64,000 bases of DNA from the human T2T-CHM13v2.0 reference genome, Homo sapiens (GCF_009914755.1 NC_060947.1), one strand, 5' to 3'. Counted from the first letter of the stretch, positions 2,355 to 48,569 are shown. Notes: a model not told the origin generated them from the sequence alone. Numbers and translations: made by a program.

Positions 2355-5300
2355 TTTTTTTATTATTATACTTTAAGTTTTAGGGTACATGTGCACAACG
2401 TGCAGGTTTGTAACATATGTATACATGTGCCATGTTGGTGTGCTGCACCCATTAACTCATCATTTAGCATTAGGTACATCTCCTAATGCTATCCCTCCCC
2501 CCTCCCCCCACCCCACAACAGTCCCCGGTGTGTGATGTTCCCCTTCCTGTGTCCATGTGTTCTCATTGTTCAATTCCCACCTATGAGTGAGAACATGCGG
2601 TGTTTGGTTTTTTATCCTTGCGATAGTTTGCTGAGAATGATGGTTTCAAGCTTCATCCATGTCCCTACAAAGGACATGAACTCATCATTTTTTATGGCTG
2701 CATAGTATTCCATGGTGTATATGTGCCACATTTTCTTAATCCAGTCTATCATTGTTGGACATTTGGGTTGGTTCCAAGTCTTTGCTATTGTAAATAGTGC
2801 CACAAAAAACATATATATGCATGTGTCTTTATAGCAGCATGATTTATAATCCTTTGGGTATATACCCAGTAATGGGATGGCTGGGTCAAATGGTATTTCT
2901 AGTTCTAGATCCCTGAGGAATCGCCACACTGACTTCCACAATGGTTGAACTAGTTTACAGTCCCACCAACAGTGTAAAAGTGTTCCTATTTCTCCACATC
3001 CTCTCCAGCACCTGTTGTTTCCTGACTTTTTAATGATTGCCATTCTAACTGGTGTGAGATGCTATCTCATTGTGGTTTTGATTTGCATTTCTCTGATGGC
3101 CAGTGATGATGAGCATTTTTTCATGTGTTTTTTGGCTGTGTAAATGTCTTCTTCTGAGAAGGGTCTGTTCATATCCTTTGCCCACTTTTTGATTGGGTTG
3201 TTTGTTTTTTTTCTTGTAAATTTGCTTCAGTTCATTTTAGATTCTGGATATTAGCCCTTTGTCAGATGAGTAGGTTGCAAAAATTTTCTCCCATTCTGTA
3301 GGTTGCGTGTTCACTCTGATGGTAGTTTCTTTTGCTGTTCAGAAGCTCTTTAGTTGAATTAGATCCCATTTGTCAATTTTGGCTTTTGTTGCCCTTGCTT
3401 TTGGTGTTTTAGACATGAAGTCCTTGCCCATGCCTATGTCCTGAATGGTATTGCCTAGGTTTTCTTCTAGGGTTTTTATGGTTTTAGGTCTAACATGTAA
3501 GTTGTTAATCCATCTTGAATTACTTTTTGTATAAGGTGTAAGGAAGGTGTCCAGTTTCAGCTTTCTACATATGGCTAGCCAGTTTTCCCAGCACCATTTA
3601 TTCAATAGGGAATCCTTTCCCCATTGCTTGTTTTTGTCAGATTTGTCAAAGATCAGATAGTTGTAGATATATGGCATTATTTCTGAGGGCTCTGTTCTGT
3701 TCCATTGATCTATATCTCTGTTTTGGTACCAGTATCATGCTGTTTTGGTTACTGCAGCCTTGTAATATAGTTTGAAGTCAGGTAGCGTGATGCCTCCAGC
3801 TTTGTTCTTTTGGCTTAGGGTTGACTTGGCAATGCGGGCTCTTTTTTGGTTCCATATGAACTTTAAAGAGGTTTTTTCCAATTCTGTGAAGAAAGTCATT
3901 GGTAGCTTGATGGAGATGGCATTGAATCTATAAATTACCTTGGGCAGTATGGCCATTTTCATGATCTTGATTCTTCCTACCCATGAGCATGGAATGTTCT
4001 TCCATTTGTTTGTATTCTCTTTTATTTCCGTGAGCAGTGGTTTGTAGTTCTCCTTGAAGAGGTCCTTCACACCCCTTGTAAGTTGGATTCCTAGGTATTT
4101 TATTCTCTTTGAAGCAATTGTGAGTGGGAGTTCACTCATGATTTGGCTCTCTGTTTATCTGTTATTGGTGTATAAGAATGCTTGTGATTTTTGTACGTTG
4201 ATTTTGTATCCTGAGACTTTGCTGAAGTTGCTTATCAGCTTAAGGAGATTTTGGGCTGAGATGATGGGGTTTTCTAGATATACAAGCATGTCATCTGCAA
4301 ACAGGGACAATTTGACTTCCTCTTTTCCTAATTGAATGCCCTTTATTTCCTTCTCCTGCCTGATTGCCCTGGCCAGAACTTCCAACAATATGTTGAATAG
4401 GAGTGGTGAGAGAGGGCATCCCTGTCTAGTGCCAGTTTTCACAGGGAATACTTCCAGTTTTTTCCATTCAGTATGATATTGGCTGTGGGTTTGTCATAGA
4501 TAGCTCTTATTATTTTGAGATACTTCCCATCAATTCCTAATTTATTGAGGGTTTTTAGCATGAAGGGGTGTTGAATTTTGTCAAAGGCCTTTTCTGCATC
4601 TATTGAGATAATCATGTGGTTTTTGTCTTTGGTTCTGTTTATATGCTGGATTACATTTATTGATTTTCGTATGTTGAACCAGCCTTGCATCCCAGGGATG
4701 AAGCCCACTTGATCATGGTGGATAAGCTTTTTGATGTGTTGCTGGATTCGATTTGCCAGTATTTTATTGAGGATTCTTGCATCAGTGTTCATCAAGGATA
4801 TTGGTCTAAAATTATCTTTTTTTGTTGTGTCTCTGCCAGGCTTTGGTATCAGGATGATGCTGGCCTCATAAAATGAGTTAGGGAGGATTCCCTCTTTTTC
4901 TATCGATTGGAATAGTTTCAGAAGGAATGGTACCAGCTCCTCTTTGTACCTCTGGTAGAATTCGGCTGTGAATACATCTGGTCCTGGACTTTTTTTGGTT
5001 GGTAAGCTATTAATTATTGCCTCAATTTCAGAGCCTGTTATTAGTCTATTCAGAGATTCAACTTCTTCCTTGTTTAGTCTTGGGAGGGTGTATGTATCGA
5101 GGCATTTATCCATTTCTTCTAGATTTTCTAGTTTATTTGCATAGAGGTGTTTATAGTATTCTCTGATGGTAGTTTGTATTTCTGTGGGATTGTTGGTGAT
5201 ATCCCCCTTGTCATTTTTTATTGCATCTATTTGATTCTTCTCTATTTTCTTCTTTATTAGTCTTGCTAGCAGTCTTTCAATTTTGTTGATCTTTTCAAAA

Positions 5301-6781
5301 AACCAGCTCCTGGCTTCATTGATTTTTTGCAGGGTGTTTTGCATCTCTATTTCCTTCAGTTCTGCTCTGATCTTAGTTATTTCTTGCCTTCTGCTAGCTT
5401 TTGAATGTGTTTGCTCTTGCTTCTCTAGTTCTTTTAATTGTGATGTTAGGGTGTCAATTTTAGATCTTTCCTGCTTTCTCTTTTGGGCATTTAGTGCTAT
5501 AGATTTCCCTCTACACACTGCTTTGAATGTGTCCCAGAGATTCTGTTATGTTGTGTCTTTGTTCTCGTTGGTTTCAAAGAACATCTTTATTTCTGCCTTC
5601 ATTTCGTTATGTACCCAGTAGTCATTCAGGAGCAGGTTGTTCAGTTTCCATGTAGTTGAGTGGTTTTGAGTGAGTTTCTTAATCTTGAGTTCTAGTTTGA
5701 TTGCACTGTGGTCTGCGAGATAGTTGGTTATAATTTCTGTTCTTTTACATTTGCTGAGGAGTGCTTTACTTCCAACTATGTGGTCAATTTTGGAATAGGT
5801 GTGCTGTGACGCTGAAAAGAATGTATATTCTCTTGATTTGTGGTAGAGAGTTCTGTAGATGTCTATTAGGTCCGCTTGGTGCAGAGCTGAGTTCAATTCC
5901 TGGATATCCTTGTTAACTTTCTGTCTCATTGATCTGTCTAATGTTGACAGTGGGGTGTTAAAGTCTCCCATTATTATTGTGTGGGAGTCTAAGTCTCTTT
6001 GTAGGTCATTAAGGACTTGCTTTATGAATCTGGGTGCTCCTGTATTGAGTGCATATATATTTAGGATAGTTAGTTCTTCTTGTTGAATTGATCCCTTTAC
6101 CATTATGTAATGGCCTTCTTTGTCTCTTTTGATCGTTGTTGGTTTAAAGTCTGTTTTATCAGAGACTAGGATTGCAACCCCTGCCTTTTTTTGTTTTCCA
6201 TTTGCTTGGTAGATCTTCCTCCATCCCTTTATTTTGAGCCTATGTGTGTCTCTGCACATGAAATGGGTTTCCTGAATACAGCACTCTGGTAGTTCTTGAC
6301 TCTTTATCCAATTTGCCAGTCTGTGCCTTTTAATTGGAGCATTTAGCCCATTTACATTTAAGGTTAATATTGTTATGTGTGAATTTGATCCTGTCATTAT
6401 GATGTTAGCTGGTTATTTTGCTCATTAGTTGATGCAGTTTTTTCCTAGCCTTGAAGGTCTTTACAATTTAGCGTGTTTTTGCAGTGGCTGGTACCGGTTG
6501 TTCCTTTCCATGTTTAGTGCTTCCTTTGGGAGCTCTTTTAGGGTAGGCCTGGTGGTGACAAAATCTCTCAGCATTTGCTTGTCTGTAAAGGATTTTATTT
6601 CTCCTTCACTTATGAAGCTTAGTTTGGCTGGATATGAAATTCTGGGTTGAAAATTCTTTTCTTTAAGAATGTTGGATATTGGCCCCCACTCTCTTCTGGC
6701 TTGTAGAGTTTCTGCCGAGAGATCAGCTGTTAATCTGATGGGCTTCCCTTTGTGGGTAACCCGACCTTTCTCTCTGGCTGC
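2355..6781 (-). mobile_element. L1PA3/L1PA4 copy A, 5'-truncated within ORF1 (~4.4 kb)
   Basis: Poly-T followed by the L1PA 3' UTR (attatactttaagttttagggtacatg); ORF2 EN/RT peptides; TSD ttatttct at 2347-2354 and 6782-6789. Confidence 0.95.
2570..6397 (-). pseudogene. Disrupted L1 ORF2 (endonuclease/reverse transcriptase) of copy A
   Basis: [19 protein letters not shown] start, QGCPLSP and FADDM motifs; broken into several ORFs by stops and frameshifts. Confidence 0.95.
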
Positions 6782-48100: not shown

Positions 48101-48569
48101 TCCTGGATTCATTGATTTTTTGAAGGGTTTTTTGTGTCTCTATTTCCTTCAGTTCTGCTCTGATCTTAGTTATTTCTTGCCTTCTGCTAGCTTTTGAATG
48201 TGTTTGCTCTTGCTTTTCTAGTTCTTTTAATTGTGATGTTAGGTTGTCAATTTTAGATTTTTCCTGCTTTCTCTTGTGGGCATTTAGTGCTATAAATTTC
48301 CCTCTACACACTGCTTTGAATGTGTCCCAGAGATTCTAGTACGTTGTGTCTTTGTTCTCATTGGTTTCAAAGAACATCTTTATTTCTGCCTTCATTTTGT
48401 TATGTACCCAGTAGTCACTCAGGAGCAGGTTGTTCAGTTTCCATGTAGTTGAGCAGTTTTGAGTGAGTTTCTTAATCCTGAGTTGTAGTTTGATTGCACT
48501 GTGGTCTGAGAGACAGTTTGTTATAATATCTGTTCTTTTTCATTTGCTGAGGAGTGCTTTACTTCCAAC
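45150..48569 (-). mobile_element. L1PA4-like copy C, 5'-truncated in ORF2 (~3.4 kb)
   Basis: L1PA 3' UTR; ORF2 peptides at 46030..48311; 15-bp TSD tgaatatgtacaatt at 45135-45149 and 48570-48584. Confidence 0.95.

What the first reader, a model, noticed from the sequence alone, without database searches (positions are those of the whole stretch)
2355..48569. Three neighbouring L1PA3/4 copies share rare variants in incompatible patterns (ectopic gene conversion?)
Seen: copies A (2355-6781), B (22981-29158) and C (45150-48569) are independent insertions with different TSDs and 5' ends, all on the minus strand. They share changes relative to the consensus as I recall it. A+C: gatgCtatc (~3061/45856), cattTtag (~3237/46030), tagttGaatt (DLIQLK), acaaGcatg (DDML), tacTtccc (GKY), attCttgcatcaGtg (TDARIL). 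A+B: ttgcGtgttc (~3307/23944), ttattCaatagg (SLLNK), gtatTctct. B+C: ccagTttcatc, ctaaTatgtaa, tgCagtatag (LYCK), ggtatTaggatg, cttttTcatttg. All three: aaattAtcttt. Inference: a single tree cannot fit three conflicting pairings, so patchwork non-allelic gene conversion among same-orientation L1s ~20-43 kb apart is the simplest reading.
Basis: partly seen in the sequence, partly recalled or inferred. Interest (0 to 1): 0.7.

Follow-up and report, generated by a model that had tools for sequence, protein, structure and literature searches.

The report
Neighbouring L1 copies swap rare mutations
Dead copies of the human L1 jumping gene that lie near each other on a chromosome share rare mutations far more often than chance allows, here and elsewhere in the genome out to several hundred thousand bases, likely because DNA repair copied short stretches from one copy into its neighbour long after they inserted.

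Summary
The shared variants are real. A and C share 9 rare non-CpG alleles against 0.67 expected; no copy elsewhere carries two of the A+C alleles that were searched. Genome-wide exact searches for eight rare L1 alleles gave stronger support. With the window's region removed, same-allele carriers lie within 150 kb of each other in 20 pairs (about 0.8 expected) and at 150 kb-1 Mb in 30 pairs (5-6 expected), in both orientations, with no excess beyond 1 Mb. Five more L1s within 340 kb of the window join a mosaic that no tree fits. A chr11 pair 118 kb apart and 6.6% divergent holds a 330-bp identical tract. B carries a 3' transduction from chr2, so it is no local daughter. Best reading: old, distance-dependent non-allelic gene conversion among L1s (0.8). 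This is known for Alu (about 10 kb), LTRs and segmental duplications; ten searches found no neighbour analysis for L1. Ape orthologues were not available.

The parts
2355..6781 (-). L1 copy A, 5'-truncated (about 4.4 kb), ORF2 broken; TSD 2347-2354 / 6782-6789
   Evidence: 2.74% non-CpG divergence from the column majority
22981..29158 (-). L1 copy B, full length (6.18 kb), both ORFs broken, inserted into an older L1
   Evidence: 3.20% non-CpG divergence
22794..22980 (-). 3' transduction carried by B, followed by a short poly(A) (T-run 22790-22799); its only other match is contig C2:35,161,791-35,161,971, where no young L1 lies in the 3.5 kb upstream
   Evidence: (2 of 2 candidates: self and C2, 95%)
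22778..22793 (.). left TSD of B (partner 29163-29178; 16 bp, 2 mismatches)
45150..48569 (-). L1 copy C, 5'-truncated (about 3.4 kb), ORF2 broken; TSD 45135-45154 / 48570-48589
   Evidence: 2.77% non-CpG divergence
3914..4904 (-). stretch of A with 8 of the 12 rare or semi-rare alleles shared with C, plus the three-way allele at 4814; likely converted region
   Evidence: A-C differences 30 of 1006 inside vs 83 of 1489 and 53 of 865 outside; sites
46707..47697 (-). matching stretch of C
3307..3603 (-). A+B alleles at A 3307 (B 23944; 21 exact carriers in the genome) and A 3603 (B 24240; 59 carriers, one of them an inverted L1 about 33 kb upstream of A)
26385..26385 (-). B+C allele (C 48540; 36 exact carriers, one of them an inverted L1 about 280 kb upstream)

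Best explanation
A, B and C are independent old L1 insertions that share rare mutations with each other and with other L1s within a few hundred kb, likely because DNA breaks inside one copy were repaired from a physically close copy (non-allelic gene conversion), leaving short copied tracts. Shown: independent insertion, excess sharing, a mosaic that fits no tree, decay with distance, no need for the same orientation. Inferred: homology-directed repair without crossover as the copying route; chromatin contact as the cause of the distance decay; tracts of tens to hundreds of bases, several of which overlap to give the 1-kb A-C stretch; an age of roughly half the elements' age for that stretch, so before the human-chimpanzee split. 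Direction of transfer is unknown.
For: (1) A+C 9 vs 0.67 expected. The double allele 25412+25421 has 3 exact carriers: A, C and an old L1 only 81% like B. (2) Allele 24603 has 11 exact carriers, 4 of them within 340 kb here; a fifth was found on alignment. Five non-window carriers of the seven alleles fall next to the window vs 0.17 expected, 0.5 if X density is tripled. (3) Eight local copies: 40 shared rare alleles vs 15.6 expected with the five search sites removed, 33 vs 14.9 without A-C; 0 of 400 random sets reached the 34 observed shared sites; only 16 of 45 shared sites fit one tree. (4) Genome-wide, 287 carriers of 8 alleles: same-allele pairs 8, 12, 14, 16, 14, 34 in bins 6.5-50 kb, 50-150 kb, 150-400 kb, 0.4-1 Mb, 1-3 Mb, 3-10 Mb vs 0, 0.6, 1.8, 4.1, 13.0, 37.8 from different-allele pairs; 15 clusters under 150 kb vs 3.7, 0 of 5000 shuffles as high. 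(5) L061/L062, 118 kb apart, inverted, 183 of 2782 different, share a 330-bp identical run; maximum 240 in 1235 unlinked pairs. (6) Five C4 copies in 580 kb share allele 24240; four are 1.8-3.5% apart and one is 6% away, so they are neither siblings nor one duplication. (7) B came from C2. (8) A>C/T>G rates are not raised locally: 3.7 and 4.7 vs 3.6 per 1000.
Against: Pairs with B show no significant excess once the search sites are removed (7 vs 4.7, p 0.19). The drop in A-C divergence is marginal after allowing for window choice: 10 of 324 unlinked pairs are as extreme at 1000 bp, 151 of 324 at 500 bp. Dispersed sublineages exist and can share more than A-C does (L027/L028 on C23 and C12: 19-21 alleles). 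Seven of the eight alleles were chosen because they are shared in the window; the one blind allele gave 1 pair under 150 kb (0.07 expected) and none at 150 kb-1 Mb, and the long-range signal rests mostly on two alleles (40 of 50 pairs under 1 Mb). The five neighbours were found through one of the alleles. Sequence was read for only a few clusters, so some listed pairs may be duplications. No ape orthologue or read data was examined.
Confidence: 0.8

Rival explanations
1. A and C are sister insertions from one source element that landed 43 kb apart (local re-insertion or one burst); B's sharing is chance.
For: A and C are sisters in a tree of 31 copies (support 0.988). Shared alleles span 2.3 kb. 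B's excess is weak.
Against: None of 12 shared alleles lies in the last 870 bp of overlap (p about 0.03). Single A+C alleles turn up one at a time in different neighbours (24603 in L065, L066, L067; 23701 in L068; 25542 in L064), and L064 and L065 fall in a different clade. It does not explain the chr11 tract, the mixed-age C4 cluster or the genome-wide decay. B's source was on C2.
Confidence: 0.1
2. A dispersed L1 sublineage plus recurrent mutation; being neighbours is coincidence.
For: L027/L028 show that unlinked copies can share 19-21 rare alleles. Each single allele has 11-99 exact carriers in the genome.
Against: No copy outside the neighbourhood carries two A+C alleles in the position lists; only 2 same-element co-occurrences of any two alleles among 287 carriers. 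None of the 29 of 30 fetched carriers of 25450 that aligned at that site had other A+C alleles at 24603, 24921, 25098, 25412, 25421 or 25542. Exact patterns miss some carriers, so a very small lineage is not excluded.
Confidence: 0.04
3. Local duplications or assembly and polishing errors mixed neighbouring L1s.
For: Some close pairs lie in duplication-rich regions and were removed; others were not read.
Against: A, B and C have unrelated flanks and their own TSDs. The A-C stretch is still 3% divergent with a longest identical run of 86 bp, unlike a collapse. The pairs that were read differ by 4.9-6.6%.
Confidence: 0.03
4. Regional mutation bias makes the same change recur in nearby copies, or copying runs through L1 RNA or cDNA held near its locus rather than DNA to DNA.
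For: 6 of 9 alleles found in three or more local copies are AT-to-GC. An RNA route cannot be told from DNA repair by sequence alone.
Against: Local A>C/T>G rates are ordinary, and the five C4 carriers of 24240 all lack 24603. Truncated copies without a promoter (A, C) take part. Multi-site identical tracts are not point mutation.
Confidence: 0.03

Closest known systems
Non-allelic gene conversion between neighbouring Alu elements (Aleshin and Zhi 2010; paper not held, seen only as described in PMC6598467 and PMC8230782)
   Same: Non-diagnostic mutations shared between neighbouring copies, falling with distance.
   Different: Reported range about 10 kb; here L1 sharing is raised about 10-fold at 150-400 kb and 4-5-fold at 0.4-1 Mb.
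Patchwork conversion among human LTRs (Trombetta 2016, PMC4921805; passages read)
   Same: One element becomes a patchwork from many donors; short tracts (maximum 14-450 bp); intrachromosomal donors favoured.
   Different: Y-linked polymorphisms at two hotspots; no distance curve in the passages seen; not L1.
Interlocus conversion in gene duplicates and segmental duplications (Harpak, 10.1101/135152; Vollger 2023, PMC10172114; passages read)
   Same: Mean tract about 250 bp (Harpak); intrachromosomal donors up to megabases away (Vollger).
   Different: Those substrates are long and 98-99% identical, with few donors; here 3-6 kb repeats 2-7% apart with thousands of possible donors. The GC bias reported there was not seen overall here (18:18).
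Recombinant young L1s (PMC13192797, passages read: 35 of 2,267 removed as recombinants); single-locus L1 conversion cases (recalled, not seen)
   Same: L1 copies with mixed ancestry.
   Different: Screened against lineage donor groups; no link to neighbouring donors in the passages seen.

Membership tests
L1 non-LTR retrotransposon insertion | poly(A) tail, TSD, 5' truncation or full length | tested here: met
L1PA3/L1PA4 subfamily | diagnostic positions against subfamily consensuses | not testable with these tools
Divergence of 2.7-3.2% and B's 6.18 kb length fit it by my recall.
non-allelic gene conversion | paralogues share derived alleles above recurrent mutation | tested here: met
   A-C 9 vs 0.67; local set 40 vs 15.6. 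Not met for B's pairs alone.
non-allelic gene conversion | sharing is patchy and breaks a single tree | tested here: met
   336 of 990 site pairs incompatible, 16 of 45 sites fit one tree (about 15 of the 34 non-search sites are expected by chance); 330-bp tract in L061/L062. The A-C divergence dip alone is marginal.
non-allelic gene conversion | rate falls with distance in cis | tested here: met
non-allelic gene conversion | not explained by duplication or shared parentage | tested here: met
   for A, B, C and the clusters read; not checked for the other listed pairs
non-allelic gene conversion | one-way transfer, acceptor ancestral in outgroup species | not testable with these tools
   no ape genomes or other human haplotypes are held
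GC-biased gene conversion | excess of AT-to-GC among transferred alleles | tested here: inconclusive
   shared 18:18, private 154:154; 6:1 among alleles in three or more copies, with the GC-to-AT allele 25450 filtered out of that count

The most novel reading that the evidence does not exclude
Fixed primate L1 copies form local exchange networks up to about 1 Mb wide across the genome. At least 5-10% of the rare differences in L1PA copies were copied from a neighbour rather than mutated, some alleles spread through five or more copies of different ages, and the sharing map is a fossil record of germline chromatin contact domains with a reach 10-100 times that reported for Alu.
Probability: 0.5. 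Interest if true: 0.8.

Novelty: new variant of a known kind. Interest (0 to 1): 0.64.

Why it matters
L1 dating, subfamily trees and source-element tracing treat each copy as decaying on its own. Here 34 of 287 carriers of a rare allele have a same-allele neighbour within 150 kb (1.2 expected) and 57 within 1 Mb (12.7 expected), so a measurable share of L1 divergence looks borrowed. L1 copies are long, numerous and spread everywhere, so they would give a genome-wide assay of which template a germline break chooses, as a function of distance, orientation, divergence and domain boundaries. The test needs only existing human and ape assemblies.

Tried and rejected
Polarising sites with the older in-window L1 at 34458-36381: too divergent, dominated by CpG and subfamily sites. 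Divergence-scan test for an A-C tract: marginal. GC-bias test: no overall bias. Recovering B's parent through its transduction: the C2 site holds the flank but no young L1 in the 3.5 kb upstream, so B's starting alleles could not be read. The third carrier of the double allele (L031) is an old L1 17% away from A, B and C, read as recurrent mutation. Only 30 of the 62 carriers of 25450 and none of the non-window carriers of 24921 or 23944 were read as sequence. L006 was dropped from the unlinked set as an apparent duplicate of L005. From the 341 carrier positions I dropped 54 before the main count: contig C24, four regions I recall as duplication-rich (C5 69.5-72, C23 51.5-53.5, C11 48-51, C2 131-133 Mb) and C23 76.4-77.2 Mb; the looser count for seven alleles gave the same picture. 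Aleshin and Zhi 2010 and an L1 Ta survey were not held. No supplements were read.

Full report
Naming. Sites are given by their window coordinate in copy B. Contigs bear numbers only; the hub's note makes C23 chrX, and I read the other numbers as chromosomes by assumption. 'Rare' means non-CpG and seen in at most one other copy of the unlinked set, unless stated.

Observation. A (2355-6781), B (22981-29158) and C (45150-48569) align at 93.7-94.9% with no homology beyond the elements. TSDs are distinct and all ORFs are broken. All 15 motifs are present as described. Against 58 unlinked copies, most are rare, but 24653 (17 of 58) and 23290 (16 of 29) are common and 25160 is a CpG site. I found further A+C alleles at 23253, 24603, 25098 and 25542.

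Is it more than chance? A+C share 9 rare alleles vs 0.67 expected; A+B 2 vs 0.82; B+C 1 vs 0.78. Counting 25450, B shares 4 sites with A or C vs 1.6 expected (p 0.08), or 7 vs 2.5 at a looser cut-off (p 0.015). Among 1650 unlinked pairs, 2 reached 8 or more; one is a true dispersed sublineage (L027/L028, uniformly about 1% apart). So A-C is solid, B is suggestive, and the sublineage rival had to be tested.

Genome-wide counts. Exact carriers: 25412+25421 together 3, 25450 62, 24921 13 against 3791 for the common allele, 23944 21, 26385 36, 24240 59, 24603 11, 23701 99. Exact patterns miss carriers with another change nearby; two such were seen (L059, L065). No element outside the neighbourhood carries two A+C alleles, so no dispersed lineage with that haplotype was found.

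The neighbourhood. Five further carriers lie at 76.589-76.851 Mb on C23, against 0.17-0.5 expected. I read parts of all five. They are 5-6.6% from each other and from A, B and C, two are inverted, and each shares different alleles with different partners. With the five search sites removed the eight copies share 40 rare alleles vs 15.6, 33 vs 14.9 without A-C, 12 vs 4.4 among the five neighbours alone, but only 7 vs 4.7 for pairs with B. Distant chrX copies show no excess (0.17 per kb vs 0.22). Only 16 of 45 shared sites fit one tree. These neighbours were found through one allele each, so the excess is conditional on that.

Elsewhere in the genome. With 54 of 341 carriers dropped (C24, four duplication-rich regions, the window's neighbourhood), same-allele pairs number 8, 12, 14, 16, 14 and 34 in the six distance bins against 0, 0.6, 1.8, 4.1, 13.0 and 37.8 from different-allele pairs, which share the same L1 density. 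A smoothed null gives ratios of 33, 21, 10 and 5 for the first four bins. Counting clusters rather than pairs: 15 vs 3.7 under 150 kb (0 of 5000 shuffles) and 22 vs 11.7 under 1 Mb (1 of 5000). Orientation is 20 same, 30 inverted. Six of eight alleles have a pair under 150 kb. An allele private to B, chosen blind, gave 40 carriers and one pair at 46 kb (0.07 expected under 150 kb) but nothing further out; the range beyond 150 kb rests mostly on alleles 24240 and 23701. Three neighbour pairs that fell into the sample unasked share 10, 6 and 4 rare alleles against a mean near 0.7. L061/L062 has 0 differences in 248 bp and 7-9% on either side. Five C4 copies of mixed age share 24240 and little else.

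B's origin. B sits inside an older L1 and carries about 185 bp of unique sequence between its tail and a second short poly(A). That sequence matches one other place, C2:35.16 Mb, at 95%, with no young L1 upstream. I infer that the source was an unfixed L1 on C2. B is therefore not a daughter of a local source, and whatever it truly shares with its neighbours came after insertion.

Mechanism. Shown: independent insertions, excess sharing, mosaicism, distance decay, indifference to orientation, no local mutation bias. Inferred from established repair biology: a break inside an L1 invades the nearest similar copy in three dimensions, copies a short tract and resolves without crossover; repeated events move alleles along a chain of neighbours. 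The A-C stretch (A 3914-4904, C 46707-47697) is 3.0% divergent against 5.6-6.1% outside, which puts it near half the elements' age and, taking about 1.2% for human-chimpanzee divergence (recalled), before that split. The dip alone is marginal (10 of 324 unlinked pairs). No GC bias overall.

Known work. Neighbour-dependent conversion is described for Alu within about 10 kb (Aleshin and Zhi 2010, not held; as summarised in PMC6598467, parts 1-2 of 4 and passages read, and PMC8230782, passages), for LTRs (PMC4921805, passages) and for duplicates (10.1101/135152, passages; PMC10172114, passages). Two recent L1 sequence studies showed no neighbour analysis in the passages found (PMC13192797; PMC10883270, no mention of gene conversion); a review added nothing (PMC8232201, passages). 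Ten searches (listings seen) found no study of distance-dependent sharing among L1 copies. The library lacks most subscription papers, 'L1' alone cannot be searched, supplements were not read, and I recall single-locus reports of L1 conversion that I could not open. Absence from print is therefore not established.

Verdict. Real feature; non-allelic gene conversion among neighbouring L1s, 0.8; B's part in it about 0.7. A new variant of a known kind, notable for the element and the range. Interest 0.64.

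Noticed in passing
window 22794-22980; G000:C2:35161791-35161971: 3' transduction on copy B with one other match in the genome; the source site has no young L1 upstream, so the parent was probably never fixed.
   Followed up: yes
L061/L062 (C11:31.713 and 31.831 Mb): Inverted L1 pair 118 kb apart, 6.6% divergent, with a 330-bp identical run holding most of 10-11 shared rare alleles; the clearest and probably youngest tract seen.
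   Followed up: partly
L069-L073 (C4:115.21-115.78 Mb); C23:80.14-80.38 Mb: Allele 24240 is in five copies of mixed age on C4 and in four copies on C23 (the latter not read); one allele seems to spread locally again and again.
   Followed up: partly
L027 (C23:11.29 Mb) and L028 (C12:90.52 Mb): Unlinked copies only about 1% apart sharing 19-21 rare alleles: a late, small source lineage.
   Followed up: no
C1:167,893,757 and 167,903,827: Inverted L1 pair 10 kb apart among only 13 carriers of allele 24921; sequence not read.
   Followed up: no
window 22981-26415 and 47800-48100: At positions that split the L1 sample into older and younger types, B and C switch type along their length; this could be an intermediate lineage or further conversion.
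   Followed up: no
window 16737-19361, 19645-20760, 29163-33018, 34458-36381, 61226-63701: Older L1 pieces, 65-87% like A, B and C; all on the minus strand except the last.
   Followed up: no
L005 (C22:15.72 Mb) and L006 (C14:12.72 Mb): Hits with equal scores and near-equal alignments, apparently duplicates on acrocentric short arms.
   Followed up: no
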